Source: Amoebophrya sp. A120 (Eukaryota; Protista; Dinoflagellata). From it: a stretch of 64,000 nucleotides of DNA. The stretch is taken from contig CAJINV010000001.1 in NCBI GenBank assembly GCA_905178155.1, forward strand, positions 7,137,794 through 7,201,793. Direction: 5' to 3'. The translations under genes and the position numbers were made by a program. The notes below the pieces were generated by a model. It was given only the letters and a program-made list of their open reading frames with translations. It did no database searches and was not told the DNA's origin. Within the stretch, counting starts at the first letter, position 1. Each line of letters starts with the position of its first letter. Shown here piece by piece: positions 1 to 62,159 of this stretch.

Positions 1-3000
1 AGAGCTGGACGCGTTTCAGGGTATAGTTTTTTGGAAAAATTTATCTTTTTCTTCGTCCTCTGTGTGGGATAAAAGAAATCCACAATTATTCGCACAGCTA
101 GAACAAGCCTCTCCCGATTCCAAAATGTTAAAGAAGATCATGCCTTGCAAAATAACTCAAAAACAGACATCTGCGGTATGCTGTTCGTGGAGATGTGGAG
201 TAACGATCGCGAGGGCTTCCCGATGCCTAAGGGCTGCTATTACAGCCGGAAATATCGAGACGCGTCAGAGGGGAACGCAATCAACCTGCAGTGGCGCGAG
301 ATTTCCATCGTCTTTCCCTTCTCGAACGGCCTCAAGCACATTTGCCAGAGCCACGCCAACCAGGCGATCGCGTGTCGGTACCAGCTGGTGTTGAACGCGT
401 ACATTGGCGCGCAGTCCATCCTGGTCGCCAACGACAACCTGGTCGACGTGTACACGAAGTGCCCGCGGTGCGGCGCCAACGGCCGCGACGTGATGTTCGA
501 GCGAGGAATCACCACACTGAATGCCGACTCCCCGACCGGCGGCTCTCTGGCGCCGGGTGACAACACGTCCCCCAACTTGGAGCAGTTCATTGTGCCCAAT
601 CCCGCGACGAGTGCGGTGAAGGACGCCACCTGGGACGTGTTTGATTTGACTTCGAACACCGTGGTGGACGCCCAGCTCGTCGCGGGCGACGGCTTGCAGA
701 GCATCAGTGCGGGGAACTACCTGCGGTTGTACCTCTTCCCGCTTCTGATGTGGGAGGTCCCCACCGCCGCGTGCTCGGTTCTGTGTGTGGATTACACGGT
801 GGCAAACACGGTGTACAAGTGCGGGACGACGGACCAGGTGAACCCCACTTTGGAGGTGGCGATCGCGTCGCTGACGCCGTTCGCGAGGAGGAACTACCTA
901 AAAATCCGCATGCCGGAGACCATGACGGACGTCGTGTCCACCACGATAAAACACGGGATCCAGATCTCCTCACTAGACTTCCCCCCCGGCGGGTTCTTCA
1001 ACGTGCGCATGGGCGTGCAGCTCACGGACTCAGCGGATTTGAAGCCGGTGTACAAACCCTCTACCGGATTGATGTACAAGGCAACCGGGACCGGCGGACA
1101 CACGACCGGGCGGATCGTGATCAACGGCGCCACCGGGTATGGGATCGCCCCCTTTCACTCCGACATCCGGAACGAACTCTACGTGAGGTTGCAATTGGGC
1201 GCGACGCTCTTCCACAACGGCCAGACCGATGCGGCGTATTTGGAGATCAAGGCGCCGTCCGGCACGAACAAGAAGTACCAGGGACGGTGCGAGCAAACCG
1301 CGCCGGCGCCGTCGAACATCCCAAATTTCTTTGACTTCGACCGCGATGGGTACATTGACTACAATCACGGGACACTGGGCACGAGTACGAACGAGGGGAA
1401 GTGGGGTTTCGGCGAGGCTTTGAACTTTTGCAAGTACACACTGTACCCAAACCAAGCGATCTACGCCGGGATGAGCATCTACGTGAAGTTGATCATGGAC
1501 AACCCGACGGAGGCGATGACGAAGCACGACGTGGACAACGTGTGGGGCATCAGGATGGTGTCGCGCGGCGTCGCTGGTACGCCAAGCACGGCCAGACCGA
1601 TGGGAAATCCGAACATCTACCCGTTCAACCCGGCTTACACAAATAACGTGTTGACCGCCGAGGCCACCTACCAGCGCCCCAACGAGCCCAAGCTGTGGTA
1701 CCAGAATGTCGGGGTTGTGTCGCCTCTGGAGCAGCCGGTCTTATCGCCGACGCACTTCAGGCTGTCGACTTCTCTCTATCAAAAGGAAAAATCCCTCCTC
1801 CCCATATCGAAACGAAATTTCTGATGCTGGATTTGGATACACAAATCAGATTTGTGTTGCAGAAAGGCATTGCGGCCAGATCCCCAGGCTAGGTGGGGGC
1901 GTATGGGTCTAGTTGCTCAGCATGGCAAACGGCCCCCCTTTAGGCCCAACAGCATGACAAATCGCCTCCATAATATGGCGGAAGCTTCTGCCCTTGTCTT
2001 CTTGCAAGAGAAATGTGATTTGTGACCTCAAATCAGCAATACAAATTTCCGGAGACATACCTTTTCAATATGGGGAGGGGGGATTTTTCCTCTCAATACT
2101 CTCCGGCCGGAATACAGCGACGTGTACATTTTCTTCAAAATCGTCACTGTGGTTGGCAGGAATGGGTTCATCAAGGTAGACGCGCCCTGCGGGTTCGATT
2201 TCGGGAACCAGGTGATTGGCAAGCCAACCAACTGTGTCACCGGCGGTCTGCCAAGGTACAATTAGTGCGTTTCTTTTCCATTTCGTTCATGTGTGGCATT
2301 CAACATCATGATTAGCTTCAGCTCAAGAGCAGGAAGAATGTCAACAAGTAGACGGAGTGAACAAAACGAAAAAATGAAAACTCTTTTTTCGAACAGGTAC
2401 TACTACGACTACATAGACTCGAACTACGATAGTACCACGAATTTCACCAATGTGCTTTCCTGCACGGCCCAGAACCTGATCCCGCAATGCCCGGCCCCCG
2501 GACCGTACAACCGCGCCGTGCTCAACATTGGAGACAGCATGGGCCAGAATGCGGACACTGGTCGCATGGCACAGTACGGGTTCAAGCTGAGAGTTTTGCA
2601 CTCGTTAGAACTGCGGTACCCGGCGGACTTCACCATGTGGCAGCTGTTTGTGTCCGACCACGCGGACTTCGTGGTGGATGGAACGAGAGACACCCTGTTT
2701 TTCCAGAAGATATCAAAAGAAGGAAACACGGATGCACGGGTGGACAAGGCCTTCGGTTTGTACGTAACAGACTTCACGAAAGTGCCGACAATAGCGGTGA
2801 CGGTGGAGAATTTAACGCCTGCGACGTTGAAACCGCAGGGGGATAAGGGGACGTACGTGACGCTGAACGGGTTGCGACTGATGTACGACGTGTACGGTGT
2901 CGGATTCAGGTTCATCTCCCCCCTCGGCTTTCGGTGGACGACCGAGCCCGGGCCGGTGTTTTTCAATCGCCCGCGCGGGTCCTCGGTCGTCGGAACGCAA

Positions 3001-6000: not shown

Positions 6001-9000
6001 TGCTATCGCATTTTTTTATGTTTTTGTTCGTACCAGCAGCAGCAGTCCCAGACCCAGTCAGTGAGGCTGAGGATATCATGCAACCAAAGTAAGTGGAGGC
6101 AGCGCCGTGGCTGGTTTCTTTTAAGCGTCCCGATGAACCTTAGAACGAAGTCATGATCGAAAGACATCGAACTGCAAAAAATTTCGCTACAGTCCTCCGG
6201 GTCCTTTTCCCACCTCCGTGTCTGAGCTGTGCGGTTGCAATTTCGAGCTAAACGGGAAGGAACGTTGCGGCCTCGAGTTTGACTTCAGGTCGGTAGCTGC
6301 GGGAACGCCGCTGCCGCCGGCAAACTTCGAGTTGCGGTTCTCCGTGGACACGTCGAATCCTGAGCAAGTTGATTCGGAAATCGGCAACCATTGGGTCGTC
6401 TTCCACAAGCGCGGAACCGAAACTGGCAACATCGGAGGTGTGCCGACCTTCAGTTACACAACAAGGTAAAAAGAAATGAACTCAAGATGTTAGTAGACCT
6501 AGAGTGTGTGTTTCGCTTTTCTCGGTCCGATGGTGTTTCTCTTGGCGGACGCATGTACTACGACGACACTAGACAAAAGAAAGAGCTGCGTCATTTTCAT
6601 ACATTACACTGTTCAGGTCCACACACGCTTACAAGTCTTGGGTGGTGCGTCCGCAGCTGCAAAACGTCGTCATTGACATTGTGGGTTCCAGAAAAGCCGC
6701 GGAGAGTTACACGAACATCACGATCGCCTTTGTCCCCGTGCAGAATGCGGTCACGATGCTCGCCGAAGTGGTGTCCCCGCCGGGCTTCAAATTTGACACC
6801 TGTGCGGTGAAGCAGCCGCAGGTCAAGGACCCGGTAGCCACCGCGGGAAACATCCTCGTCGTGAACAGTATGGGCGTGCAGGCCGGCGTTGCGAACAAGG
6901 CCGTGCTGATCACTTCTGTGCGGCTGGGTGAGCTCGGGGGGCAAACCCGGTGGAACATCCGGACCTACATCAACGAGCTGGTGAACGGGCTGCCGCAGGT
7001 CCCGCAGGATCTGATGGACGAGAGGTTGAACGTGCCGGGTTTCATCATGCCTGGAAAGTTGCAAGTGCTGGAGAACCCGCCAAAACGGCTGGAGTCGGAC
7101 TACTATTCCTCTTCCTCCGTTTACCCGACCATGAGCCAGTTCCCGGCGCGGGAGTCCGAGCTGAACACGGCAGAAATCTCCTTCCGCACAACCCAAACGG
7201 TCTACGCGGGTGGTTACATCTACATCACTTGCCAGGGCCCGCAGGCGTACACTCTGGACCGGGAAGCGTTCTCGATCTCCGGGGGAAGCAACATCATCGA
7301 CGTCAACGACCAGATCGTGATTTTGAACCCGGCGACCGGCGGGCTCGAGGTGCAGCTGCACGCGTCAAAACCGCCAGCGGAAGCAGTAAGGAAATTTTTG
7401 TTGAATCGTGATTGGAACATTTAGAGCTGGTGATGAGTTGATGAGTTGTACTTTTGTCAGAAGTTCAAGTTTTCGACAAACCGAAAATGTTGAAAATGAA
7501 AAAATCGAATCAACAAAAACAGGTGATCAACGCGAACGAGATTTACAAGGTTCGATTTCGAGTGACACCGAAGAAGGGTCAGTCCAATTGGAAGATTGAG
7601 ACCTTTGCGCTGAACAACTTCGCGCTGCCATCGAACACCAACGACGGCGAGGAGGGTCCGTTCGATCCGGTATTCCGGATCGGGGTCACGATTTTAGTCG
7701 TGAACGACCGTAGGCCGCCGTTGGCTGTGATCACACTGAAGGTGCGCGTCGTGTCCGGAAATGCGTCCGTGAAGCAAGTCGTGTTGATAGCGCCACCGAC
7801 CTTCGATTTCCCGCAGGACTGCGGCACCAACTGCGAGCCCTACGTCGTGTACCAGTGCGGCCCTGGCTGTCCGGGAAGAAAATCCGTGCGCATCTTTTCG
7901 CCGGATCCAAATCTGGACCTGACGCTGGCCACGCTGAACGAGATGCAAATCAAGACGATCACGCCGGCAGTGACCCCTGCGGCGAGCAGTTGGTTTGTGC
8001 AAACCATGTCCGGCAGTCTCAGCGGCGGCTTCCGCGTGACCGGGTGGGAGAGATACTCCGGCTTCAACATCCGGCAGATGACGCCCATCAAGCTGTGGTA
8101 CCCGCAGCGGCGCGGACTGCAGGGGGCGAACTTCGCGTTCACGTTCTACGTGGCGGTGAACGGAGGGAGGATCATAAACGTGGTGCCCCCGGTGCTGTAC
8201 GAAGTGTACTGCAGCACCATGCCGTCGACGGGCGCGCCGGCCTTCTTCCAGGTCAGTCTGCCGGGGGGGAAGCCGGGTTGCGTCGACAGCCCGCTGGCGT
8301 TGACGCTCACCGAGGCGCTGAAGGGAGAGACCACGTACAGCTTCATTATCGGCGGCGACGTGCCCACGCAGGACGCGCAGTCCGGGGTGACGCAGGAATT
8401 TGCGCTGGTGGTTCGCGCGGCCGACGGGGAAGTGTTGGACGGCAGCAGCAAGATTCCGATCAGGCTACCATTAACCCTGACGATGGCCAGCCGGGCTACG
8501 CTCAACTGGCCCGGAGCGCCAGTGGAGGGGACGAGACAGCTGGTATTTTTTTACGTCACGATGGAGCTGCTCTTTTCCTGCTGTCGCAGGAACTAGTACT
8601 GGAAGACGTAATCCACCTGAAAGTTCTTGCCATCCAGGTCCATGGAATAAATAGCTAGAACTAGAAGTTGTCAAGTCAGGATCATTGCGTACATGAAGAT
8701 CATGTTTTGTATCCATTTTTTTCACACGACCAGGTTCACATTGGGCTCGACTTCGACTTCGACTTGCCGATGGAGGCCATCCTTGTGACGCTTCCGCCGG
8801 GGATCACGCCTGATTTCTCGAAGGAATTGGTTGAGCGTATCAAAATGAAAAATCCCCCCTCCCCATACTAAAAAGGCAAACGCCTGAAAATTTGCGATGC
8901 TGATTTGTGACCACAAATCGTCTCTGTATTGCACGAAGGCAACCCCAGAGACTCCGCTGCGTTGTGCAGGCAGTTTGTAATGCTGTATCGCCTGCCGAGG

Positions 9001-9876
9001 ATGTGCCTGCCTTGCTAGGTGCCTACGCCAAAACGCCCCTCCTCAGGCTGCGTGCCTGGCTGCAGTCCTCTACTGCAACACAGAGCCGATTTGTGTGCCC
9101 AAATCCCGCATCACAGATTTCCATTTTGATATGGGGTGGGGGGATTTTTCATTTTGATAGAGCGGAAGAGGGACGTGAAGAATCTGAACAAATTGTTCCC
9201 GGTCGCCACCTATGGATTGCAAAAATGTCTGGGTCTGGAAGATTGCGAGATTTGTCATGCTGATCTGGCATGGCCATTAAATCTGTATTGCGTGGCCACA
9301 AACAGCCTCTCTCGCCTGTCATGCAAAAACGCAGTTTCTCACGCGGAATACGCAGCACAGAAGCACGAAGCAACTTGTCATGCGTAGCGGCGCATTACAG
9401 TGCATTTTTTATTGACTGAATTGCATCACAAATTTCCAGACCCAGACATTTTTACATTTGATACCACCGCAGACCAGTGGATCGAGTTTAGTGCGCGCAA
9501 CGAATACCCGGCATTCGTGAAAATTCTCACGGACGAGGCCGCCGGGCTAGTCATCGCGCAGGGGCGGTACAAGTTTGAGTTTTACGTCCAGTTACCGGTC
9601 GGAGATTTACCAAGCGAAAACATCTGGTACGTTTCCCTATGCGCCGCGCGACAGTGCCGCAGCATCCGCGACGAACCGGCGTCCGCTATCCCGCTCACGT
9701 TCCCCATCCCAGGGTTCAACTTCGGCGAAAGCAGCGACAAAGTTCTGTACCCGTCGTCTAGTCGACAAAAGGCGGTACTGGGGTTGCTCCCAGCGTGGGC
9801 GCTGGTGTTTGCCCTAGTTTTCACCCAGCTTTTCGCCGGCGTGATTGCGGAGGGAGGCTTCTTCAGGCGGGATTGA
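1..9876 (+). CDS. Very large multi-exon protein of unknown function (5' end outside window), beta-rich ectodomain with C-terminal hydrophobic anchor
   Basis: ORFs 145-1824, 2293-3246, 3308-4573, 4398-6092, 6218-6469, 6642-7424, 7454-8596, 8668-8871 and 9400-9876 can be joined into one gene. Approximate GT-AG introns: 21-166, 2256-2396, 3210-3351, 4157-4331, ~5975-6192, 6466-6616, 7386-7522, 8543-8733. Three introners also interrupt it. Ends AVLGLLPAWALVFALVFTQLFAGVIAEGGFFRRD*. Confidence 0.8.
1777..2098. mobile_element. Introner family A copy 1 (322 bp TIR element, 5-bp TSD CTCTC)
   Basis: Left TATCAAAAGGAAAAATCCCTCCTCCCCATATCGAAA is the near reverse complement of right TTTCAATATGGGGAGGGGGGATTTTTCCTCTCAATA. 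CTCTC flanks both sides. Removing element + one TSD gives ...RLSTSL|RPEYSDVYIFFK in frame. Confidence 0.93.
8838..9159. mobile_element. Introner family A copy 2 (322 bp, TSD GAGCG), inverted relative to copy 1
   Basis: TIRs TATCAAAATGAAAAATCCCCCCTCCCCATA / TATGGGGTGGGGGGATTTTTCATTTTGATA. GAGCG on both sides. Removal gives KELVER|KRDVKNLNK. Its reverse complement aligns colinearly with 1777-2098. Confidence 0.93.
9211..9463. mobile_element. Introner family B copy 1 (253 bp, TSD CCACC)
   Basis: TIR core AAAAATGTCTGGGTCTGGAA / TTCCAGACCCAGACATTTTT with TAT...ATA ends. CCACC flanks. Removal gives LFPVAT|ADQWIEFS in frame. Confidence 0.93.
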
Positions 9877-22212: not shown

Positions 22213-24015
22213 ATGTCGAACTTCAGACCGACAGATGCGACCCCGCATGCTCCTTCTGTCGTAAATGCCGCGGCGGCGCCAGCCACCTTCGCACTGACGG
22301 AGGTCCTGAGCGTAGTGACAGGTGATGATGCTCTACCTCTTGAACAGCGCAGATGGGACGCTGCAACAACCACGAAGAAGCAAGTAAAGCAGGCCGCTGC
22401 AAAGGCTTGGCTGTCCTCCGAACGCAATACGGAAAAGAAGCGCAGTTGTTTTTGGGGACGCGTTTCGCTGTTTCCTGAAGGGGCGGACATGAGTGAACAG
22501 TGCGTCATCAACGTAGTGCACGACGAGGAGACAAACTTCGCTGAGTGGTTGCAGGGCTTGCAGGGGACAGGGAGAGGCGACTCCGCCGACGAAGAAGAAG
22601 ATCAAGAAGCCGCATCGCAATGCGGCGGAGAAGTGAAAGTAAAGAACCTCCGCTATTACGTCCGCTACAACAAGACGTTCGAGAGCCGCGAAGAACTCGA
22701 TGCGGCGCTGCTTCCCTATTTGGACCCGGCAGGAACCGCTGCGGAGCAAGATGCGAAAATCGAGGCGGTCGAAAATGTCTACGGACCCCTAATTGTGTGG
22801 GACGTAAGCGGTGTGGATGATTTGTCCGGCGTGTTTTATCGGCAACGTGAGTTCAACCGTGACATCCGCGGCTGGGACGTTTCTGGCGCCGAGGACATGG
22901 AGGGAATGTTCGACGGTGCGGCGCAGTTCAATCTATCCAGTGCAAATATATCCGGGTTTGGAAGGATGCAGCTTGTCATGCGAAATCTAGATCATGCAAA
23001 AATCTGTGTTGTGTGATTTCCAAAAGCTGTCCACTTTTGACCAAGTTGAGGGGGAGTTTCTCATGCAGGATAGGCATGATACAGGTCTCGCAGAACCTGT
23101 CATGCTAGCTCCTGCCATCCAGACGTCACGGATCATGTTAAACCGGCATGACAAGTCTCGTAATCTTCCAGACCCAGACATATTTGCAGGGCATACAATC
23201 AGCCGCTAGACGACTGGGATACTAGCAGTGTGCGCCGCATGACTCAGATGTTTAACGGTGCGGCCCAGTTCAACGGGACACTGGAAAAGTGGGACGTTAG
23301 CAAAGTGGACATCATGAACAGCATGTTTTACGGCGCAACTAGTTTCAACCAGCCCTTGGCGGGCTGGGACGTTAGTAACGTGCGTGATATGATTCACATG
23401 TTCTGCGATGCGACATCCTTTAACCAGCCGCTTGCGGGTTGGAACGTCAGCCGTGTCCGCGAAATGAACTGCATGTTCTTGAACGCGAGTAGCTTCAACC
23501 AATCCCTGGCGAGCTGGGACGTTGGTAATGTGTCCAGTATGCGAGCAATGTTCGAAAACGCGGCAACGTTCGACCAGCCACTGGCGGATTGGAACATTAG
23601 TAACGTCGTCGACATGGGTTTCATGTTCAAGAAAGCAGTCGCGTTCAACCAGCCCCTGGGGCGTTGGGACGTTCGGAAGGTAATGAACATGTGCAGGATG
23701 TTCATGGACGCGAAAAGCTTCAGTCACTCCTTGGGCAACTGGCGAGTCAATGCGAGGACGTTCCGGAGAAGAATGTTCCTCCGAGCCGAGTCCTACAAAT
23801 ACGGACTGCCGCAGAGGGATAGGAGTATCCCCGGGGATCCAACGTTCAAGTTTTTTTTCCCATGTGACTTCGAGACATTCACAGACGAAGTCGATGACGA
23901 GGACAGCGGCGAGGACAGCAACGAGGACAGCGACGAGGACAGCGACGAGAACAGCGACGAGGACAGCAACGAGGACAGCGACGAGGACAGCGACGAGGAC
24001 AGCGACGCGGAATAG
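22213..24015 (+). CDS. BspA-like / DUF285 bacterial-type surface-repeat protein with acidic tail
   Basis: About 8-9 repeats of WDVSNVxxMxxMFxxAxSFNQPL. Interrupted by introner 22934-23195, whose removal restores AQFN|QPLDDWDTSSVRRM. Confidence 0.88.
22934..23195. mobile_element. Introner family B copy 2 (262 bp, TSD CAATC)
   Basis: TATCCAGTGCAAATATATCCGGGTTTGGAAG ... CTTCCAGACCCAGACATATTTGCAGGGCATA. CAATC flanks. Interior closely similar to 55899-56160. Confidence 0.93.
23899..24006 (+). repeat. Coding minisatellite, 9 x 12 bp (GAGGACAGCGAC; EDSD)
   Basis: Direct tandem repeats visible at the 3' end of the DUF285 gene. Confidence 0.9.
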
Positions 24016-33800: not shown

Positions 33801-36800
33801 TAGATGGTGCTTGTCAGCATGACAAGCTGCGGCAGCTCACTTAGCGGGTACGTACCATGACAATGCTTTGTAGACTGACGTCAATTTTTGTTGACTGTTG
33901 TCCTCGCACCACAAGGATCATACATGAGTTTCCCTTATCCTGCCGCTCCCCAAATGAAAGCAGGGAGTAGAGCTGCGGTTGTCCAGCACGGGTATAGAGG
34001 AAGCGCTGGTGCTATTTGCATATAGCGGACGTGTGGCAGGGAGAGCCCGAAGAGGAGTACGCCGGGATGCCGGAGATTCATCCGGTGCTGTGCTGGAACG
34101 ACCGGGTGCGCACGGGGTTGGGCCGGTACACCGACGGCTCCGAAGAAGAGAGCCTTTTCGTGGACGATTTCAGTGTGGTGTCTGCGCGTTGGTGCGAAAC
34201 CGGAAACGAGCCCGACCCGGTCGGCTGCCCGGATTCACAGCAACCCGGTGGCCAGCAGCTGCCCATGCCGTTCTCTACCGACCAGTACCGGCCGCTCGCA
34301 GGGACACACAAGCAAAACCGCGGGGACGACGTGTGTGTGTGCGACAGAACGTTCTTGGTTATGTGCGGCCTGAAAAGCTACAACGCGCCGCGAATGTCCT
34401 ATGAAAACCTCGCTTTGACGGGGGGACTGACCGAGTCGGGGAAAACGCAGCTGCCGTGCGGAATCTGTGGCGCCCAGGAGGGCTTCTACGAGTCGGATGG
34501 CTGCTTCCTGGAGGAAACGCGAGGGACGGGCGTCGACATCCGGCGCATCTTCTACGGGCACGGGACCGTGACAGACGGAGGGTTGCCGGAGATCACGGTG
34601 GAGGGAGACAGCGTGTGGCCCGGCGACCAGGCGTTTTCCGACTTGAAGGCGCAAATCAGCACCGGGGCGTTGGCCACCCAGGCGGGCTGCGAAGCGCTGT
34701 GCCAGCTGCAGAGCCGAAACTGCTTCGGCTACGAGTACTGGCATAACGTCGGCAAAGACCTGTACCTGTTCGACGCGCAGGCGGACATCGCAAACCCCTG
34801 GAAAAACAACCAGTGCTGGCTGTTCCTCTCCGACGTGTGGGGCGCGCAGGCGGACGCAGCCTCCGGTGTAGCGGCTGGCCAGGGGCAGAGGCCCCTGTGT
34901 TGGAACTACCGCGCAAAGATGGGCGTCTGGACGCCGATAACAAAGGTGACGACCGCCCGCAACTGCCGTGCGGCCCTGGGGACGGACCCCCCAATCAGCT
35001 GCAGCTCCGGCTGGTATCACCCCCTCGGCGCCCCCATCGCACCCACCATGGGTTTGTGGCAATACAAGCATCTCGAGTGTTACCCCTGCGGCAAGAACAA
35101 GGAACGCTGCGGCAAGTCCTACGGGCCCGGTTTGGACCACAATTGCCTGTTCTTTGCGGACAATCTGGCACAGGTGGACGCAGCGACGTACGCACCGGTG
35201 TTGTGGGCAAAAACGTTTTCGCAAGGCGTTCAAGATCTGGGCAGGCAGGCAACCATGAGCTACTGCCACAAAACGTGCAGCGACGCGGGTTACATATACA
35301 AGAACGGAGTCCGGCACAAAAAGTGCCAAGGCTTCTTCTCTGTGGAGACGGCCCGGACCGTCGCGACCCGATGTGCGGCCTGCTTTTGGAGTCAGTGGCG
35401 AAATACCGACAGGATGGGGGTGGCACGGTCGTGGAGTTCGTGACCCCAGCGACGGCGGAGCGCGGAGCGAGCCTGCCGCGCGCGAACCCGTCGCGCCTGC
35501 TTCCCTACCAGATGGGGGGCCTCTACCACCGGTGCGACAGCCAGGCTGCGCTTTGCGAGATCTGCGGAAGATACAGTGTGTACGGCGAAGTGCCCGCGAG
35601 CGATTGCCCCATCATCGAGAGTCAGACTCCTGCTCCAACAACGCCAGCAGGGACCTTCCAGTCACTTCCCACGTCCCCGTTCCAGCCACTTCCCACGACA
35701 CCGCCGTCTCCCACGACACAGGCGCCAACCACCACACTCCCGAGCCGTGACTGCGTCGGCTCGTGGAGCGTGGTGGACTGGAAGGCGCAGTGCAAGGGAA
35801 AGGGAGAGACCGTGACGCGAGAGTACACGCAGACTGTCACTGCCGCGAATGGGGGCGCGGCCTGCGAATTCGAGGATGGCCAGGTACAAACCAACGTGTG
35901 CCCGACGGACTGCGTTGGTTCGTGGAGCGTGGTGGACTGGAAGGCGCAGTGCAAGGGCAAAGGAGAGACCGTGACGCGAGAGTACACGCAAACTGTCACG
36001 GCCGAGAATGGGGGCGCGGCCTGCGAATTCGAGGATGGCCAGGTACAAACCAACACGTGCCCGACGGACTGCGTTGGCTCGTGGAGCGTCGCAGACTTGC
36101 AAGCGCAGTGCAAGGGAAAGGGAGAGACCGTGACGCGAGAGTACACGCAGACCGTCACTGCCGCGAATGGGGGCGCGGCCTGCGAATTCGACGATGGGCA
36201 GGTACAAACCAACGTGTGCCCGACGGACTGCGTCGGCTCGTGGAGCGTCGCAGACCTGCAAGCGCAGTGCAAAGGAAAAGGGGAAACGGTCAAGCGGAAA
36301 TACACACACACTGTCCCTGCAGCGAATGGCGGTGTCGCTTGTGATTTCCAGGAAGGCTTCGTCCAGGTCGAGACGTGTCCGACGGATTGCGTTGGCTCTT
36401 GGGATGTCGCTACTCTCGCGACGCTTCGCAAGAAATGCAGCGGGGAAGGGGAGACCCTGACGCGAACCTATACGCAGAGCGTGCCTGCGGTGGACGGCGG
36501 CGTCCCTTGCGATACGGCGCACAACGCGGTCGAGAGCGTTTTGTGTCCGACGGACTGCCAGGGATCCTGGAATGTTGTCTCGACGCAGGCGCTGCGGGAG
36601 CAGTGCACGGGTGCGGGGGAGCGGTTAAGCCGGGTTTTTACCCGCACCCGTGCGGCGTCAACGGACACCGAACCTCCCGGGGTAGAGTGCGACTACAAAG
36701 ACGGGCAGAAAGACAGCATCACCTGCGCGCTGCACCACTGCGTGTGCGACCATGGGAAGGAAGCAACCGGCGCCGGTTGCGACGCCGATGGTAGCACGCC

Positions 36801-48062: not shown

Positions 48063-49527
48063 ATGTATTCGGTAGAGTCGCACCAGCCCATCTCCCCGGG
48101 TCGGTCTAGCTCCTCCACCTTCTCCTCCTCCTCGAAACGGCCCGCCGACTATTTTTGGTCCTCCGACTCAACAAAGAAACGACGAACAGACCAGCCCGTC
48201 GTCGTGCCCGACAATGTCGTCCAAGAGCTTAGCTTCAAGTATAGAGTTTTGATGTAGTACTAGAAAGTGCAAGTTTTTTCGCCGGTTTTCGACCTTTTCT
48301 CTATTTCAACATCGACTTGGTGTTGTTTGTGCATTCCACATCGTGGCAGCTTCTTCTTTCAAAGTCGAGCTCGTCCAAGAAGCAAGAAAAAAACCAAAAC
48401 TCTAAATTAAAAAACAGGCACCACATTCCGCAGGGGATCGTGAGCGCGGTCTTGGAAACAAACGAGCCAGAAGAGGGTATTCTGGCGCTGAAAGAGTTTC
48501 AACAGGAATGTTTTGTGCGGAATATTGAAAGGAAAAATCCCCCCTCCCCATATCAAAACGGAAATCTGTGATGCAGATTTGTGGTCACAAATCAGCTTTG
48601 TGATGCTAGAAGGCAAAAGATGCGGATTGTAGTGCTGTCTAGCGTGGGAAAGCCTTGCAGCTCCACCAGGATGACAGGAGGCAACTGGAAGTGGGGAACA
48701 GCATGACAGATTACCTGCAATTTAGGCCGCAGCTTCGTCTCTTGGCCTTCTAGCAATACAAGTCGATTTGTGTACTCAAATACAGCATCACAAATTCGCG
48801 CATCTTCCGTTTCCGATATGGGGTGGGGGCTTTTTTCGGTTTGATACGGAAGCGACCCCGACCAACGGACCATGACGATCCCCATAGCATTGAGAACGTG
48901 CTGAGCCCCCCCGCGGGGCCGGTATTTGGTGGAGGAGGGTCCTCCTCCTCATTTACCGGAATAAATAAGGCCCACCATAATTCGTTTCCTTCCCCGCGGG
49001 AGCTGTTGCAGCAGGACCACCAGCACCAGTCGACGTGGGCCGCACCCGAGACGATTGAAGGGTGGGCACAGGAGTTCGCGTTGGCCTTCGAGTCCACGAC
49101 CGACCGGGCCGAGCTACAGAGGAGATGCATCAAGCTGCTGCAGGAGTACAGTAAACGGTCGGACGTGGGCACCAGGTACGAAAAACTCCGCACGGCCAAT
49201 CAGGTGCTCTACAGAGCCATTGCACAAATGAACGAGCGACTACGACGACAAACCCAACAGGAGCGACAGACCGAGGAAGCGACCAACCGGCGATACAGCG
49301 AGGTACGGTTTTGTTTTTCGACTTTTTTATTTTTACCTCTCTTTTTAATACGATTGACTGCACCAACATCGAAGAACTGACTCGCTTCTTTTGGGCGGTG
49401 TATCAAATCCGTACAATGATCAGCGAAAATCTTCCAAATTTTTTCGATACATCAGGTGGAGGAGAGGTGCAGGAAGCTGGAGCAGCAAAACGATATTTTG
49501 CGGTACCACCTGCAACTGAAGGGATGA
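48063..49527 (+). CDS. CUE-like domain + coiled-coil protein (resembles plant-type Cue-domain family)
   Basis: Exons ~48063-48238, 48418-48522, 48852-49302, 49456-49527. Motifs EGWAQEF...RRCIKLL, NQVLYRAI and LEQQNDILRYHL. Confidence 0.55.
48523..48846. mobile_element. Introner family A copy 3 (324 bp, TSD CGGAA)
   Basis: TATTGAAAGGAAAAATCCCCCTCCCCATATC ... GATATGGGGTGGGGGCTTTTTTCGGTTTGATA. CGGAA flanks. Removal gives ECFVR|KRPRPTDH. Confidence 0.92.
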
Positions 49528-50059: not shown

Positions 50060-53000
50060 ATGCCAGACGAGGAGGAGAACTCGCCCGAGATGGACCCGGA
50101 GGAGGGCGAGGAGGAGGAGGCCCCGCCCCCGCCCGTGAAGAAACTTCCCGAGGAGATAGAGGCGGAGCGGTTTGAGCAGCTGGAAGCCGAGTTTCAGGAT
50201 GTCGTCGCCGGGCTGGTCGCGGACAAGGGTCTGGAGCACTTCAAACTGGAGTACGAAAAGCTCTTTCGTGCGGTGAAGAAGAGCCATGAGAGCGAGAAAC
50301 GGTTACTAAAAAAGTGCCGGGAGCTGAACCAGGAGATCGTCGACAACAGTGAGAAGGTGGAAACGGCCCTGAAAATGAGCCAAGCGGACGAGGAAACCAT
50401 CACCGAGCTGAAATATCAAATGTAAAAATGTCTGGGTCTGGAAGAATCCGAACTTGTGATGCTGCATTTGGATTCCAAAAAAATCTGTATTGCATGACCA
50501 GCAAAGGGCGTGCAATTTTGGCTACGCGGAGAGGGCATTTGTCATGCGGAATAGGCATCAAGAAGCCCTCAGAAAATCTGCATTGCTAGGGTATGCATCA
50601 CAGACATCATGGCTCATGCAAAACGTGCGTGACAAGTGTCAGAATCTTCCAGACCCAGACATTGTTACATTTGATATGAAAACGGAAATATCAAGAGCCT
50701 GGGGCATGGTGGAAGCGGCGCACGAAAAGGAAACCTCCGCGAAAGCAAGCATCTCGACCTTGAAAGGAGAGATTGCAAACTTGAGTACTTGCTGTCCGCT
50801 TTTTTTGCCTATTTCTAAACTGAGACTGTGCCCTTTATAATTAAGTATGCAGTGCGGGGTTTGTTCACCATGTTGAACTTGAAGAGTGGTTTATTGCCAT
50901 TGCTTCGATGCGAAATAAGACACATATCACAGATCAACTCGTGGAGCAGGGCGCCATAATTGCAAGGACACAAGAGCAGACCGTCTCCGCGTTGCGAAAA
51001 GAACGGGAGGATTTGCTTGAGTCCAAACAGAGCCTGCAAAAAAGCGCAGACACCTTATCGTCTGGGAACGCGGAGCTGCTGACGCAACTGGAGTCCATAG
51101 AAGGCGAGAGGAGTGAGGGCATGCTGGAAATCACCTCCCTACGGGAACTGAATACGTCAAAACGAAATGAGGTCGAACGACAGCAGCGTGCGCTGGACCG
51201 CGTCGCGAAAGATTTGGGGGTACGAAACAGTGCTTTTGTGGAAGCTGTAGAATGTTGTAGTTGTGGATGTGCCCGACCCGGCTGTGAGAGTGAGAAAAAC
51301 TGTATATACAAAAAAACACGTGCTCATCACAGGAGCTAAAAACGACGCAGCAGAACCTCGCTGAAGGCCTTTCCGATCAGGGAACGACTTTTGAAATGCA
51401 GCGGGAGAGGAGTGCCTTGATTGAGCAGCAGCTGAAGGAGCAGAACAGAATACTCGAGAAGTTGCAAGTCCAGGAACGACTCCTGAGTGAGGAGCTAAAG
51501 CGCAACGAGAAGAGCTTTGCTCAGGCAGTGGAGCAGAAGGACGACCAACTGAAAACAAACATGGATTTGAAAAACAAAATAAAGAAACTGCAGGAAAGTC
51601 TCAGGTATCTATACTTTGCATTTGCTGTGTGGTAGTTCTTTTTTGCCATGGTTGTTCGTTGCTGCCTGCGGAGCAGGTGCAGGGAGTTTTTTCTATACTC
51701 AATTCCAATCTTTGTCCAAACCACGCGACGCATCCCAAAACAAAACACAGAATCAGCCGGCAGGAAAGCGAAAAGGCGGACAGGACGCTCGCGGACCTGA
51801 AACGCGCCAAGCGAATAGAGGAAGTGAAGTTTCGCGAGCTCGTCGTCACGAAAGAGAATTTCGTCGGAGAGGTGAAAGAAATCATAAAAGAAGTCGACCG
51901 AATGCAAGCCTATGCGCAGAAGGACGACAACTCGCTTAACAAGCTTCTGCATGAACGTAACTAGATAGTTTCTCTACGCAGTAAGTAGACTATTCTTCAT
52001 TTGCGGCGATGCGTAATTTTAGTGCAGCTTGTCGTGATCAAGATCATGTTTTTTTTTCACCAGGGTCGCGGAGCGAAGCACAACATAATCAATCGGTTAC
52101 TTGAAGATACCTCCTACATGAACTATGGCAATATAACAGGTGATCTACTGAATCGCGCTATGATAAAAACCGACGAGAGATCAAAGCTGCAGATGAACCG
52201 CGTGAAGATATACGACCAGGCGGCCGAGGCCAGCCGGGAGGAGATCGCTACCTGGAAGGTAAAGGTGCAAGCAGGAGTCAAGAAAATTGACGAGCTCGAC
52301 CGCGCGAGGGAAAAGCTAGGGCTGGAATGCAACGCTGCAAATCAAAAGTACGTGTCCATTTTCATTTTCGCATTACTTTTACTAGAAAATAAAAGTTCTC
52401 CCTTCATGTTTTCACAAAGCCCGAAAAGAACGTCATGGACTATGTATGTACAGGTACTACGCCAGGAACAGGACTAAGAAGTAGATTCTGATATTCGCTT
52501 TGCATCATGATGATGTTTGTATTGTCCTCACTCAGGTATTTCCAACTGTTGGACGGGATCAAGAACGCAGAAAACAAGGCGACCGATCTCCGCAAGAACC
52601 ACGGAGATTTCCGCATGAAACTGAACCAGCAGAAGGAGTTGTACCAGCAGGTGAGGAGTGAGCGGAATGCGTTTTCCCGGTCCCTGATTGAGTCGCAGGA
52701 CGAAATCTCGGAGATGAAGCGGAAATTCAAGATCATGTTTCACCAGATCGAGCAGCTTAAAGAGGAGATCAAGGAAAAGGACGAAGCCCTGAAGCGCGAG
52801 ACCAGCGACTTTGACCGTAAAAAGCGCGAGTGCGTGAAGAGAAAAGAGGAGGCCAGTAAGGCGAAAAAGAAGCAGCAGGAGCTGACGCATCTCGCCGAAC
52901 TGGAAAACGAGGAGATCAAAAAGCTGGAGCACCGCATACACGAGTTTGAGTCCACGCGGCTGGCGCAAAAGCAGGAGTATGAGGAGGTAGTGGCGGAGCG

Positions 53001-55092: not shown

Positions 55093-57325
55093 ATGGCTCC
55101 CTCGCTCACCCCGGGCGGCCAGCTGCAGTCTGGCGGCTCTTCCTCGTCCTCCTCCGCCGATGACTTGTGGGTAAACAAGTACGCGCCAAAAACCTTCGAA
55201 GATGCGGTAGGGAACGAGGATATGCTGTCTGTGTTGCAGCAGTACACGCACGAGCCGGAGCAGATGCCGTCCATGATCCTCGCGGGTCCGCTATTACAGT
55301 GAAAAATGCCCCCATTCCCAAAGTTGCAAAAATTTGTGATGCGAAGTTTCCAAATGAAAACTTTTTGCCATGCATGAAAGGAGTATGAATCTTTCTGATG
55401 CAGCAGAGTCCAGGCGTGTATCGCATCGCTTGCATAACAAGCGCCACTCTTGCTGGGGTCTTTTGCAATTCAAATTTTTGCTATTTACGATTGGAAGCCT
55501 GTGATGCTGATAGATGCAAGAGGGCAAATGTTTCACTTGGAAAGGTTTGCAATACAAATGCTCCCAAGTTCGGGGGTGGGGGCGTTTTTCATTGTAATAC
55601 CCGCCGGGGTGCGGCAAGACCACGGCGTTACACGTGCTGGCGCACGCATTGCACGGGGAGGAGAAGGAGGAAAATTGCCTGGAAATAAACGCGTCGGACC
55701 AGCGCGGCATCGACGTGGTGCGCGAACTAATCGTGAATTGGCTCAGCAACTTCCGGTTTGATCTGATTGGAAAGAAAAATAAGGCCTACCGCCTTGTCTT
55801 GCTGGACGAATTCGACAACATGACGGTGCAGGGCCAGGAGGCCCTGCGTAAGGTGATGGAGCAGTACAGCGACCGCGCACGATTCGCGCTGGCCTGCGTA
55901 TCAACTGCAAAAATGTCTGGGTCTGGAAGAATGCAACTTGTCATGCTAAATCTGAAGCATGCAAAAATCTGTGTTGCATGATTACCAAAAGTCGTCCAGT
56001 TTTGAGCAAGTCGTGAGGGAGTTTCTCATGCAGGATAGGCATGAGAGAGATCGCACAGAATCTGTCATGCTAGGTCCTGCATTCCAGACCTCATGGGTCA
56101 TAGGAAAGCTGCATGACAAATCGCGCAATCTTCCAGACCCAGACATTTTTGCATTTGATACTGCAACCACCCGAGCAAAATTCTCGACGCGATCATTAGT
56201 CGCTGCAGCGTGCTAAAGTACAGTACGACTCTAACGTAGCGCTAGCTCTCTTTTTAAAGATGATAGTTTCATGTATGCCTCTCAGTTCCTCTCAACTACA
56301 TCGTACACGTATTATCGTTTGATCACTAACTTCTTTTGTCGTTTCCTATTCTTCACAACATCATGAGGTTTGAAAAGATTGACCACAAGGAGATCGTGTA
56401 CCGCATAGTACAAGTTTGCCGGTGTGAGAATCTCACCTACGACGCCGCCGGGCTGGATGCATTGTGCTTCATGGCGGACGGTGATATGCGTAAAGCGATT
56501 ACGATGCTGCAAGCCGTTGCGGATCGCGTGCGGGATGGCGATGTTCGCGGGTCGCCGAAAAATATCGAGCGGGAGCAGCACACGATTAATGACGTTAGCG
56601 ACGAAAACAGGGGGGAGAACGACGTTGTGATGGATGATTATGCCGATGGAAATAAACCGCTGGACGAAACAAGTACGAAAGAGGATGCTTCGAAAGAAGG
56701 GGATGCGGCTGCGAAAGAATCTGCTGGTGACGCAGTTGCAACCGGTGAAATTATAGCCGTAACAAAGGCGAACGTTCTGCGTGCGTCTGACGCTCCGAAC
56801 CCGGACTTGCTGAAGTCCTGCATTAGGAGCTGCCTTTTCGGCCAGGATTGGCAGCAGGCCTTTTTCCCGGTATCTGTTATTCTTCGTACAAAGAGGCTAG
56901 GCATATAATGTAGGCCGCTTGAAGGAGACTCTTTGTCCTCTGACTCTGTTATGATGAAAATGAAGAAGAAGAACAAATTGAAATTTCATGCTTCTCTTGT
57001 TTTCTATCGGTCAACATGTCGTGGGTCACCGTCCTCTCCCTCTTCACAGATTGTGCGACTCGAGCGCGCCGGCTACCCCCTGCGCGACGTGATGTGCTGG
57101 TTGCAGCGCATGCTTCTGGAGGACCAGTCGCTCAACGACCTTTCTGACGATCTCCGGGCGGAACTGGTGAACGAGGTTGCGGACGCGCACGGCAAGATGG
57201 TGCGGTACCAGAAATTTTCGCTTCTGCAGATTGACGCGCTTCTCACGCGCCTCCGACTCAAATACAACCTCCGCGAGAAGCAGGGACTGGTGTGCGGCGG
57301 CGAGGTACGTGCGTTTGGGTCGTAA
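55093..57325 (+). CDS. RFC2: Replication factor C small subunit (human RFC2/yeast Rfc4-like)
   Basis: WVNKYAP, Walker A GPPGCGKTT (split by an introner), LEINASDQRGIDVVR, LLDEFD, QEALRKVME, RFALACN..KI...IISRC (split by an introner), ADGDMRKAI..LQ. Confidence 0.9.
55292..55599. mobile_element. Introner family C (308 bp, TSD TCCGC/CCCGC) in the RFC Walker A motif
   Basis: TATTACAGTGAAAAATGCCCCCA ... TGGGGGCGTTTTTCATTGTAATA. Removal + 5 nt restores LAGP|PGCGKTT. Confidence 0.95.
55899..56160. mobile_element. Introner family B copy 4 (262 bp, TSD CTGCG/CTGCA)
   Basis: TATCAACTGCAAAAATGTCTGGGTCTGGAAGA ... TCTTCCAGACCCAGACATTTTTGCATTTGATA. Removal restores FALAC|NHPSKILDAIISRC. Confidence 0.95.
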
Positions 57326-58413: not shown

Positions 58414-59269
58414 ATGGTGGCCTCGGACGACGAGGAGCTGCTCCCGACTGTAGTCGCGAAGCCGAAAGACGGCGGGCGCTCGTCGACCGAGTCCGGGTCG
58501 GTTCTGACGCGGAGTACTACTAGCCAGTATCACAACTTCGCTGTGGATCGGACCATCGCGGAGGGGGATGCGTTCGAAGACGGCCCCGACAGCCGCGGAC
58601 CGCACGCGGCGGCGTCCGGGAGCAGTAGGCAGAGCCCCGGCGGCGAAGAACACGACGGGCAGCCGGGGACGAGGGAAATGAAGGGAAAAGAAGATGAACT
58701 GGTGCCGTGGCTGCGGTATCTGGATCCGGTGGCGCAGTTCGCGCGGCTGACGTCCTGGCTGCAGCTGCTGGTAGACACGTACGGCTTATCAAATGTAAAA
58801 ATGTCTGGGTCTGGAAGAATTCACGTTTGTCATGCTTGTCCGGCATGACTCTTAAATCTGTTATGCACGTTACCCAAGAGCTCCGTTTTTCTGTGATGCA
58901 GAAGCGCAGTTTGTCATGCAGAATAGGCAACACCTAGGAGCTCAGAAACTTTGGAATTTGTGTTGCTGTGAACCGGATGAGCAGATGAATCTGTGACGCG
59001 GCTGCACTTGCTAACCTGCACTACACTGCATAGCGCAACTTGTCATGCGTGACTCACAAAACTCCTAGGCTTGTGTTGCAAAATCCCCATCCTAACTCTG
59101 GCGTGGGTGCGTTTTTACTCAGGATATGAAGGGGTTCGTCTTTAGCTACCTGGCCACGTCCATCGACTTCGCGCTGAAGTTCTACCAGGTGTCCGGGCCG
59201 CGGATCCAGATCTACAAGGCCGTCACGCTGGCGCCCTGGGCGCTCAAGCCGCTGTTTGGCGTGCTGTCG
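58414..59269 (+). pseudogene. Folate-biopterin transporter (BT1 family) 5' fragment, truncated
   Basis: KGFVFSYLATSIDFALKFYQVSGPRIQIYKAVTLAPWALKPLFGVLS contains the BT1 PW..KP..G..SD motif. No further transporter exons were recognised downstream in the window. Confidence 0.7.
58787..59126. mobile_element. Chimeric introner: family B left end + family C-like right end, no matching TSD
   Basis: Left TATCAAATGTAAAAATGTCTGGGTCTGGAAGA; right GGCGTGGGTGCGTTTTTACTCAGGATA. Flanks are CGGCT vs TGAAG. Confidence 0.75.
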
Positions 59270-59424: not shown

Positions 59425-59470
59425 ATTATGCACCTGTGTGCTCGTGCGGCATCTGAATGTAGAAAAGATG
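59425..59470 (+). repeat. Junction motif copy 2
   Basis: Identical 42-bp core at 59428-59469. Confidence 0.95.
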
Positions 59471-59716: not shown

Positions 59717-60858
59717 CTAAAAAACTACTACTATTCCGCGTCGCCGGTGGTGAACTTTGTCACGTGCAGACGAAGCTTGTTCATTCGGTTTCTGCCATAG
59801 TCTACTGCTTCCCTCCTGGATCAGCACTCGCTGGTGGCTGCCCCGTAGCGACTTGGCATTTTTGAGAGTCTTGTTCTTTTTCCTGCACTGTTCTTCGTGG
59901 TTCTCAAAACGACGAAGCGACCCACTGCGCTCCTGGTAGCTGAGTCGGGTATTCCACTCGGTGGAGAAAGCGGAACAATGGCGACACTGGATTCGCATAG
60001 ACTCGTGCTTGACATTCGCTGGCACCGTGATCATCTTCTTCTTGAACCGGTTGCCCTGCATGGGAAACGCGCATATCTGTGTGCGCTCGTTACGAAACTC
60101 CTCAACGGGATGCCACTTCCACTGTTGGTCTTGCGCGATCCTCGTGAACTCGTTCCGCACGTGATGCTCCGCGTGTTCGGCAATTGCGCCGACCGTTGTT
60201 TTGAAGTCCTTTTTGCACTCGGAACAGTGGAACACATCATGCGATTTTTCATCGATGAAGGCGGCATACTTATGCAACAGGTCCTTGCGCTCCTTCTCTT
60301 CTTGGTTTCTCACCGCTCTGTCGATCGAAACCCCTCGCATTGCAATTTCGTCGCCATACCAGTTTGCGGAGAAATCACGAGCGCCATGGACTGCATGCCA
60401 GTGCTGGAGATAGTCGCCCCGAAAAGTGATGTGGCAGAGCGGGCATCGTCGAGTATGGACAAGCGAAGATGGACAACCTTCTTGTAGTCCTGAATCTAAA
60501 TGATACAAGATGTCCTCGTGCTTTACAAAGTAGCGGCACGCGCGATGTAGTCCCCAGATTGTTCTCCAGGTTCTGGTCTCTGCGATTCCGAGAACGCCCG
60601 CAACGTGCAGGGTAGTCTGTGCACACAACGACGGGTGCGCTTTTTTAAGATCAAGAAAACAACACCGCAACCTGGGGCATCCGGACTGTTGCTGGTGTTT
60701 TCTAAAATCTTCGATCATCCGCCGCATGACTAAAGCGGCATCAGTTGTTGATCGTCCTTTTCTCGCTCCGAAGTTTTCGTTGTGCAACAGGTCGGCCGCT
60801 TCAGCCACGTCTGCCAGGCGCCGGGCGAACACGAAGCCCAAAAGCCTGCAAAGTGCAG
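59717..60858 (-). mobile_element. Non-LTR retrotransposon (LINE) ORF2 fragment: partial reverse transcriptase fused to C-terminal zinc fingers
   Basis: NFGARKGRSTTD, FLDLKKA and GLQEGCPSS are RT motifs. They are followed directly by CPLC..H...H, CSEC..H...H and CRHC; the YADD catalytic segment is absent. Confidence 0.85.
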
Positions 60859-60921
60859 AATCAGAAATTATGCACCTGTGTGCTCGTGCGGCATCTGAAT
60901 GTAGAAAAGATCTGCGTAATT
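60859..60921 (+). repeat. Junction motif copy 3 (longest, 63 bp)
   Basis: AATCAGAAATT + core 60870-60911 + CTGCGTAATT. Joins the RT fragment to the interior of a family A introner. Confidence 0.95.
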
Positions 60922-61186
60922 TGTGACCACAAATCAGCTTTGTATTGCAGAGCGGCACTGCGGCCGGATCCCCAGGCTAGGTAGGGGCGTATGGGTCTAG
61001 TTGCTCAGCATGGCAAACGGCTCCCCTTTAAGCCCACCAGCATGACAAATCGCTTCCCTAATGGGGCGAAAGCTTCTGCCCTTGTCGTCTTGCAAGACAG
61101 ATGTGACTTGTGACCTCAAATCCGCAACGCAAATTTTTGGAAACATACCTTTTCAATATGGGGAGGGGGGATTTTTCCTCTCAATA
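60919..61186. mobile_element. Family A introner lacking its left TIR, followed by an orphan 3' exon (61187-61414)
   Basis: Closely matches 1840-2098 (e.g. GATCCCCAGGCTAGGT..GGGCGTATGGGTCTAGTTGCTCAGCATGGCAAACGG and an identical right TIR). Followed by EMLKQEENYKADDDHL...*. Confidence 0.9.
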
Positions 61187-61514
61187 GAAATGTTGAAGCA
61201 GGAGGAAAATTATAAAGCTGATGATGACCACCTAATCTTCCCGGAGGAGGTGAACGCCAGCACCAACAGTGGGCGAAGTTGCAAAACACCGTCGCCCTCC
61301 AAACAGTCCACGTCGAACAAGTCTTTTTCCCCTTCTAACAAGTCCACGACGCACAAGCTTGTCACGTACGGACAGCAAAGGAAAAACTTCTTGGCGCAGA
61401 TCATGGGAGTTTGAATTTGTAATGCTGATATAAGTACTTAGGCACGGGCGTTGGCAAAGGCCCGCTTTGGGTATTTTCTAGAGTAGTTTACTAATCACAA
61501 CCCCCCCACCCCAG

Positions 61515-61837
61515 GCTCGAAGTTCAGCTGCTGGCCAACAAGCGGAAGGCCTCTGGGATTCGCGCCGAAGCCGCCACGATCTTCATCACACGAAAAGAAC
61601 AGATGGAAATCTGTGTTGAAGCCTGGAGACTTGTTCAGCACAAAGAAATGGCGAGGAGTTTCACAGCAAACGGCTTCAACCCCCGCTCGCCAGCAAGCGA
61701 GATCGTGTCCGACGAGCTGCGCCATCTCTACGACTCGGCAGGCGCCACAGGTCTCCGCAAGCAGGCGCGGAACAAGGCGGCCGCCTTTATCAAGAAGCGG
61801 CAGGGCAAACCGGCCGCCACCGCGGCGGAGATTTGGT
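61515..61837 (+). mobile_element. Possible C-terminal fragment of a pogo/DDE_1-type transposase
   Basis: ITRKEQMEICVEAWRLVQHKEMARSFTANGF resembles the 'AW..(I/V)....I..SF...G' motif that follows the DDE domain of pogo-like transposases. No catalytic residues are present. Confidence 0.4.
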
Positions 61838-62159
61838 TATCACGGAACAGGACATGGGCCCCCACTGTCCCCCCCCCTGCGAAAAGCAGGCCAAACCCCC
61901 TCCCCCGCACACACGCAGGCGTGTTTCTGTTGTTTTCATTTGTCCAGCCCTGTATTGTTTGGCAGAACTTTTTGTCCGCAGCCCCAACCCCCTTGGGCAG
62001 GGTCCGGGCATTTCAGTTGTTCCGAGCTGTAAAAAGTTGGAAAGCCCTGTAGCAGGGAAAACTCTCGAAAACTGAAAAAGAGTACTCGGCCCAGCCTGCT
62101 TTTCGCACGCACCACGGCCGGAGGTTGGCCGGGGCGGGCCCATGTTTTGCGCCCCCATC
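61838..62159. mobile_element. Introner-like TIR element, family D (~322 bp, degenerate ends)
   Basis: Inverted pairs ACATGGGCCC/GGGCCCATGT and TGCGAAAAGCAGGC/GCCTGCTTTTCGCA. Starts TAT; TTGG lies on both flanks. It interrupts coding-like sequence. Confidence 0.65.

What the first reader, a model, noticed from the sequence alone, without database searches (positions are those of the whole stretch)
1777..62159. DNA-transposon-like elements acting as non-GT-AG introns inside exons of conserved genes
Seen: about 13 TIR elements of 200-340 bp sit in coding sequence. For ten of them, deleting the element plus a 5-nt TSD copy restores the frame, including the RFC Walker A, CFAP58 LK|TEISRAW and a DUF285 repeat. 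For the clear copies, no register within the TSD gives GT-AG or AT-AC. Established: introner elements with inverted and direct repeats are described in Amoebophrya, so the phenomenon is not new. Inference: RFC is normally essential, so these elements must be removed precisely from the RNA (or DNA) by a route not based on canonical dinucleotides, probably guided by the terminal hairpin.
Basis: partly seen in the sequence, partly recalled or inferred. Interest (0 to 1): 0.85.

Follow-up and report, generated by a model that had tools for sequence, protein, structure and literature searches.

The report
Known transposon introns lacking GT-AG ends
Small hairpin-ended repeats, likely transposon copies, interrupt several genes of the marine parasite Amoebophrya and are missing from transcript assemblies although their ends lack the usual GT-AG signals; this is already published, and the one addition is a likely rule for where the cut falls.

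Summary
Real but known. Eight clean elements (253-324 nt, TAT...ATA ends, 5-nt flanking repeat) stand out against 0 in 100 shuffles; three more are degenerate and two are not intact elements. All eight carry the terminal motif published for Amoebophrya A120 introners. The RFC model with both elements removed matches a public protein labelled Amoebophrya sp. A120 at 440 of 440 residues. Contigs of presumed RNA runs skip element plus 5 nt at both RFC sites (3 runs) and at 61838 (1 run), and imply it at CFAP58 and 48523. A DNA-like run keeps the elements. Corrections: 58787-59126 hides a 39-nt exon missing from the window, and 8838 has an untested in-frame GT-AG option. Addition: three joints with mismatched flanks allow a common cut only 1-2 nt outside the left repeat and 3-4 nt outside the right. 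The 1-nt register puts the element's TAT on positions +2 to +4 of this genome's GTAY donors. That points to a relaxed spliceosome, but it rests on three joints and no lariat data.

The parts
1777..2098 (+). Family A element, 322 nt, 5-nt repeat 5/5, in gene 178-9876
   Evidence: RNA not tested
8838..9159 (+). Family A element, opposite orientation to 1777, repeat 5/5; in-frame GT..AG option 8837-9160
   Evidence: RNA not tested
9211..9463 (+). Family B element, 253 nt, repeat 5/5, 51 nt after the 8838 element
   Evidence: RNA not tested
22934..23195 (+). Family B element in a DUF285 repeat gene, repeat 5/5
   Evidence: RNA not tested
33196..33398 (+). Degenerate candidate, TAC start, repeat 4/5, in a Thr run
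   Evidence: near chance level by the scan; RNA not tested
33703..33996 (+). Degenerate candidate, repeat 3/5; GC..AG possible in one register
   Evidence: found by eye; RNA not tested
48523..48846 (+). Family A element, repeat 5/5
   Evidence: X3 contig piece starts at 48847 with 977 letters before it, indirect
50414..50676 (+). Family B element in CFAP58, repeat 5/5
   Evidence: X3 record 10 leaves 1081 nt, equal to the predicted exon sum without the element
55292..55599 (+). Third-type element in the RFC small-subunit Walker A, repeat 4/5
   Evidence: joint 55287 to 55601 in X3, X4, X5
55899..56160 (+). Family B element in RFC, repeat 4/5
   Evidence: joint 55893 to 56161 in X3, X4, X5
58787..59126 (+). 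Chimera: family B left part and a different right end, in a BT1-like gene; a 39-nt exon seen in RNA is absent from the window
   Evidence: (tables 5, 5c)
60919..61186 (+). Left-truncated copy of the 1777 element, not shown to be an intron
61838..62159 (+). Diverged element, 322 nt, flanks no longer repeated in register; RNA skips 327 nt
   Evidence: joint 61835 to 62163 in X3; X1 contig 61208-62305 holds it whole
55093..57324 (+). RFC small-subunit gene, two elements and two GT-AG introns

Best explanation
These are Amoebophrya introner elements, short repeats with paired ends and a 5-nt flanking duplication that likely spread as non-autonomous DNA transposons, and transcript assemblies lack exactly the element plus 5 nt, likely because the cell's own spliceosome cuts them out under relaxed end rules. 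Shown: the anatomy, the repetition, removal of element plus 5 nt at the tested sites, presence in a DNA-like run, and no GT-AG in any exact register at the eight clean sites. Inferred: the intron starts one base outside the left repeat, so that the element's TAT fills positions +2 to +4 of the genome's GTAY donor while +1 may be any base. It would end four bases outside the right repeat at any dinucleotide, the distance being measured from the base of the terminal stem. Because both ends of an element read TAT on their own strand, either orientation would work.
For: Joints 55287-55601 (313 = 308+5) and 55893-56161 (267 = 262+5) in 3 of 4 runs laid; the fourth, X9, has no cover there; one X5 contig of 1548 nt lacks both elements and both GT-AG introns. 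Joint 61835-62163 (327 = 322+5) in X3; CFAP58 and 48523 indirect. X1 runs from flank into the element and holds 61838 whole. Motif TAT, 7 nt, at least 3 A at 8 of 8 clean left ends (ends; motif in PMC7789003 section 11). RFC model 440 of 440 identical to P0001. Registers allowed by RNA, as left-repeat bases kept: 1-5, 0-4 and 3-4, so 3 or 4 in common. Donors: 30 of 31 GT-AG introns start GTA, 22 of 31 GTAY, against 64 and 33 of 295 internal GTs; all 7 RNA-backed ones start GTA. Published Table S4: all 9 top A120 pairs start N-T, all 9 top A25 pairs start TT, and the A25 repeat starts TTA. U2, U4, U6 present, U1 and snRNP27 undetected; loss of SNRNP27K goes with +4 U in yeasts (abstract). Clean elements fold with z -5.0 to -15.2, 16 GT-AG introns with z -2.7 to +1.8.
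Against: The register rests on three joints; the tightest (61838) is one contig in one run with 29 letters on its short side, and depends on placing a diverged right end at 62159. Register 3 fits as well and gives GT..TT at 61838 and GC..AG at 33703. The TAT match may be coincidence: TA..TA termini also mark IS3EU transposons. The 31 donors were picked by eye and frame, so the counts are biased upward. Published data also show A-N at 3' ends (8 of 9 top A120 pairs; AG in 24-34% of introns of the seven families with 96 or more members among 21 of 58 rows seen), which one fixed register does not predict. The elements' 3' ends at register 4 score below zero against the window's acceptor profile at 10 of 11 sites. 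The RNA runs are 'RNA?' guesses, contigs only, from one study, and may be the data behind the public annotation. No lariat or circle data.
Confidence: 0.6

Rival explanations
1. Same elements and same removal from RNA, but by a separate, structure-reading machine (endonuclease and ligase, or a special complex) that measures from the terminal stem, as proposed for euglenid nonconventional introns. This is.
For: Long terminal stems; no acceptor signal at the 3' cut; at 61838 removal is element plus 5 although the flanks are not repeated in register; Euglena introns need fixed spacers from a paired motif (PMC12501133 section 8); U1 undetected.
Against: Register 4 reproduces donor positions +2 to +4; A25 elements show the same N-T-A start by the published motif and table; the review cites spliceosomal removal of non-canonical TIR introns in Fritillaria; 61838 is removed though its ends pair poorly (16 of 30).
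Confidence: 0.3
2. The elements are excised from DNA in some life stage, and the transcripts come from element-free templates.
For: They look like cut-and-paste transposons; X1 (sample S1) and the RNA runs (S2, S3) are different samples; only 15 of 378 joints were shown, so low-depth empty sites are not excluded.
Against: X1 contigs pass from flank into element with 0 differences (38 letters at 48846, 54 at 55292, the whole of 61838; 24-29 letters, below the tool's bridging rule, at the other six ends), with flat depth of 45-55 in most unique bins. Removal of one repeat copy without footprint at every site would be unusual for a transposase (own knowledge).
Confidence: 0.04
3. Some elements use nearby canonical sites and the class is mixed; 8838 would be a GT-AG intron that leaves one extra codon, 33703 a GC-AG intron.
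For: In-frame GT..AG at 8837-9160; the paper finds repeats in 15% of canonical A120 introns; N-T..A-N pairs lead Table S4.
Against: At the five sites with RNA evidence removal fits element plus 5, not element plus 2. This rival concerns a subset and is compatible with the best explanation.
Confidence: 0.35
4. The host genes are pseudogenes killed by insertions, or the elements are assembly artefacts.
For: The BT1-like copy at 58.4-59.3 kb lacks an exon seen in RNA, differs from RNA at two synonymous sites and runs into a repeat patchwork.
Against: RFC and CFAP58 contig pieces match the window with 0 other letters and lack the elements; a relative's RFC (P0002) keeps the same residues across both junctions.
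Confidence: 0.03

Closest known systems
Introner elements among the non-canonical introns of Amoebophrya sp. A120 (Farhat et al. 2021, PMC7789003; Gozashti et al. 2025, PMC12130899)
   Same: Terminal inverted repeats starting TAT, 7 nt, A run; 3-5 nt direct repeats; about 250-320 nt; many copies; RNA-supported removal without GT-AG; classed as TIR DNA elements of unknown superfamily; identical RFC protein under that organism label.
   Different: Nothing in kind. The paper's Fig. 3 legend leaves the border position unknown; here three joints narrow it to two registers.
Euglenid nonconventional introns (PMC12501133; review PMC11282704)
   Same: Ends brought together by pairing, TSD-like repeats, no GT-AG, cut at a fixed short distance from the paired motif, longer on the 3' side.
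   Different: Their signature is CAG/CTG with 3 and 5-6 nt spacers and a purine at the exon start; here the motif is TAT/ATA with 1-2 and 3-4 nt. Circles are reported there and untested here.
Fritillaria borealis non-canonical introns (as described in review PMC11282704)
   Same: Transposon-derived introns with TIR and TSD, non-GT-AG ends, attributed to an adapted spliceosome.
   Different: Those have preferred ends (AG-AC, AG-AT); here the first base and last two bases vary freely.
IS3EU/GingerRoot DNA transposons (PMC10045372)
   Same: TA..TA termini.
   Different: Their duplication is usually 6 bp, here 5; no transposase was found here.

Membership tests
Amoebophrya A120-type introner elements | Inverted repeats pairing the two intron ends | tested here: met
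   23-29 of 30 terminal bases at 8 sites, 0 in 100 shuffles; folds
Amoebophrya A120-type introner elements | Direct repeats of 3-5 nt at the borders | tested here: met
   5/5 at six, 4/5 at two clean sites
Amoebophrya A120-type introner elements | Repeat starts TAT, 7 variable nt, at least 3 A | tested here: met
   8 of 8 clean left ends against the motif
Amoebophrya A120-type introner elements | Repeated in families | tested here: met
   Two families in the window; summed X1 depth 3.4e4-4.7e5 over element bins against 45-55 in most unique bins, not a copy count; 61838 shows no such excess
Amoebophrya A120-type introner elements | Removed from transcripts at non-GT-AG borders | tested here: met
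Non-autonomous TIR DNA transposon (MITE) | TIR, TSD, short, no coding capacity | tested here: met
   253-324 nt with stops in the host frame
Non-autonomous TIR DNA transposon (MITE) | Autonomous partner with the same ends | not testable with these tools
   No genome held; the paper reports no transposase in A120
IS3EU/GingerRoot | TA..TA termini | tested here: met
IS3EU/GingerRoot | Usually 6-bp target duplication | tested here: not met
   5 bp
U2-type spliceosomal intron | GT/GC..AG or AT..AC ends | tested here: not met
   No exact register at the eight clean sites; RNA fixes element plus 5 at RFC
U2-type spliceosomal intron | Donor consensus beyond +1 | tested here: inconclusive
   Register 4 gives N-TAY like the window's GTAY; register 3 is also allowed
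U2-type spliceosomal intron | Lariat with branch A | not testable with these tools
   Only contigs cover the genes
Euglenid nonconventional intron | N3-CDG ... CHG-N5-6 signature | tested here: not met
   Ends read by eye against the signature
Euglenid nonconventional intron | Excised as full-length circles | not testable with these tools
   No raw reads over the loci
Group I/II self-splicing intron | Rfam catalytic-core match | tested here: not met
   0 matches at gathering score in the whole window

The most novel reading that the evidence does not exclude
The Amoebophrya spliceosome has dropped both the +1 G and the terminal AG for these introns. It reads only U+2 A+3 Y+4, which every element brings in its terminal TAT, and sets the 3' cut four bases past the terminal stem. 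Any insertion of such a 5-bp-duplicating transposon, in either orientation and at any site, would then be a perfect intron at once. The rule would fix the borders that the original paper left unknown and can be checked on thousands of existing junctions.
Probability: 0.4. Interest if true: 0.62.

Novelty: already known. Interest (0 to 1): 0.3.

Why it matters
How more than 60% of Amoebophrya introns are removed without GT-AG, and apparently without U1, is an open question in the papers read. The elements themselves add nothing new. The register narrowed here gives a cheap genome-wide test that separates a relaxed spliceosome from a separate hairpin-reading machine. The BT1 site warns that neighbouring elements can hide small exons in the assembly or in the gene.

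Tried and rejected
No genome is held, so no genome-wide count or transposase search. One search was swamped by repeat contigs of X1 (15 of 378 joints shown). Homologue search for gene 178-9876 found nothing; the DUF285 search returned only long multi-repeat proteins; the representative search and the protein atlas gave no answer, so 8838 stays open. My first CFAP58 enumeration failed on a frame slip and was redone by hand-set exons. One intron of my first donor set (6089-6192) was wrong and was replaced by 5975-6192; the register scores used the earlier set. A fixed branch A seven bases before the AG was looked for and is weak (A at -7 in 15 of 31). The ORF 61495-61836 looked transposase-like by recall, but Pfam gave nothing, so it is not claimed. 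Searches of earlier scan notes by place and sequence were empty. Roy et al. 2023 (Curr Biol) is not held.

Full report
Observation. Self-comparison and repeat scans show elements that begin TAT, end ATA and carry a 5-nt direct repeat. A scan asking for at least 20 of 30 complementary terminal bases and a repeat of at least 4/5 finds eight, and none in 100 block shuffles. They fall into family A (1777, 8838, 48523; 322-324 nt), family B (9211, 22934, 50414, 55899; 253-263 nt) and one other type (55292). The eight fold into long stems, z -5.0 to -15.2 against 30 shuffles each, while 16 of the 31 GT-AG introns, folded as a control, gave -2.7 to +1.8.

Frames. Removing element plus 5 nt gives open models for gene 178-9876, the DUF285 gene and RFC and for CFAP58 up to 53185. 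Retention stops translation inside the element at 11 of 11 sites tested. Pfam names DUF285, CFAP58 and, weakly (E 0.002, below cut-off), BT1. The RFC pieces on either side of 55292 align to solved RFC chains end to start, residues 81 and 83 of human RFC5. No exact register gives GT..AG, GC..AG or AT..AC at the eight clean sites. At 8838 a cut one base outside each end gives an in-frame GT..AG intron that leaves one extra codon; this was not tested with RNA.

RNA and DNA. Twelve runs were listed and seven laid. In X3, X4 and X5 (presumed RNA, two samples, one study) both RFC elements are skipped by exactly element plus 5, and one X5 contig lacks both elements and both GT-AG introns with 0 other letters in its listed pieces; X9 has no cover. 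X3 skips 327 nt at 61838. For CFAP58 the X3 contig leaves 1081 nt between 50408 and 52536, which equals the five predicted exons without the element. At 48523 a contig piece starts at the first base after the element. X1 behaves like DNA: flat depth over introns, contigs running from flank into element, one holding 61838 whole. Its joint table was cut, so rare empty sites are not excluded. X10 and X11 did not cover the genes. Against a clean picture: at 58787-59126 the contigs of X3 and X4 carry 39 letters that the window lacks, open in frame by hand reading, and X3 differs at two synonymous sites downstream. This site is two half elements around a lost exon, by assembly collapse or by deletion in a duplicate copy; X1 depth is about doubled just upstream.

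What is known. Farhat et al. (PMC7789003; abstract, passages, sections 11, 12, 16, supplement passages and Table S4 rows seen; figures not seen) report over 60% non-canonical, RNA-supported introns in two Amoebophrya strains, with inverted and 3-5 nt direct repeats, an A120 motif of TAT, seven bases and an A run, no U1 found, and border positions left unknown. All eight clean elements carry that motif. The RFC model is identical at 440 of 440 residues to a public protein labelled Amoebophrya sp. A120, so the public model already omits both elements. Gozashti et al. (PMC12130899; passages and 21 of 58 A120 rows of one supplement seen, two files not searched) class most of the rows seen as TIR DNA elements of unknown superfamily. 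The finding is therefore already known.

Mechanism. Where the two repeats differ, the transcript shows which copy it kept. The joints allow 1-5 left bases kept at 55292, 0-4 at 55899 and 3-4 at 61838; a common rule must keep 3 or 4. Of 31 GT-AG introns that I picked by eye and frame, 30 start GTA and 22 GTAY, against 64 and 33 of 295 internal GTs; the 7 with RNA backing (2 direct, 5 through the length sum) all start GTA. Keeping 4 bases puts the element's TAT at +2 to +4 and scores best at all 11 sites scored, which follows from their shared start and is not 11 independent tests. Published Table S4 fits at the 5' end in both strains. The abstract of PMC10581693 links loss of SNRNP27K, undetected in Amoebophrya, with +4 U. 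I infer spliceosomal removal with free +1 and free 3' dinucleotide, the 3' cut measured from the stem. This is about 0.6 likely as a whole; identity as introners and removal from RNA is above 0.9. Against it: register 3 fits too, the 3' end has no acceptor signal, published 3' ends are enriched for A-N, and TA..TA ends are also a transposon trait (PMC10045372, passages). A Euglena-like separate machine (PMC12501133, abstract and section 8; review PMC11282704, passages and section 6) is the main rival. Rfam finds no self-splicing intron.

Novelty. Four literature searches on Amoebophrya or dinoflagellate introners and splicing listed no paper whose title or abstract start addresses the cut register; I read only the parts named above and passages of PMC11453091. 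Roy et al. 2023 was not available, and the figures of Farhat et al. (Fig. 3, S19-S25) may already bear on the register. Earlier notes of this scan describe similar elements in other genomes; I did not test them. Verdict: real, published, interest 0.3; the register rule is a modest, testable addition.

Noticed in passing
window 58227-59270: BT1-like gene lacks a 39-nt exon seen in X3 and X4 contigs, differs from X3 at two synonymous sites (59170, 59191), and X1 depth is about doubled at 58227-58713: assembly collapse or a deleted duplicate.
   Followed up: partly
window 59270-62330: Patchwork after the BT1-like exon: a 419-codon minus-strand frame (59717-60976) that looks reverse-transcriptase-like by recalled motifs but has no convincing Pfam match, a truncated family A element, and an unnamed ORF holding the 61838 element. 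59440-60888 is present unspliced in X3 and X4 contigs.
   Followed up: partly
window 57474, 59425, 60859, 62276: An identical 42-53 nt repeat occurs four times; one copy replaces the left end of the 60919 element and one ends the ORF after 61838. Unexplained.
   Followed up: no
window, 31 GT-AG introns: Donors are GTAY-rich and acceptors A-rich without a clear pyrimidine tract (ACAG in 16 of 31; next exon base G in 25 of 31).
   Followed up: partly
window 9160-9210; X1 joints: A 51-nt stretch separates two elements, and many X1 contigs join one element's right end to another's left end at short distance (31 contigs for one such joint), so tiny exons between neighbouring elements seem common elsewhere in the genome.
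   Followed up: no
window 1777-2098 and 8838-9159: Two family A copies lie in opposite orientations in the same gene.
   Followed up: partly
window 55899-55985 (run X10): Raw reads of another sample with the same species label match family B ends at 90-95% but not the genes: a related organism may share the family.
   Followed up: no
window 55898: The left repeat copy has G where the transcript and the relative P0002 need A, which creates a GTAT donor one base outside the element.
   Followed up: partly
window 30764-41712: Large cysteine-rich repeat gene; open frames 33998-35441 and 34747-38011 overlap in different frames with no intron picked, so a frameshift or another unusual intron may lie near 35.3-35.4 kb.
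   Followed up: no
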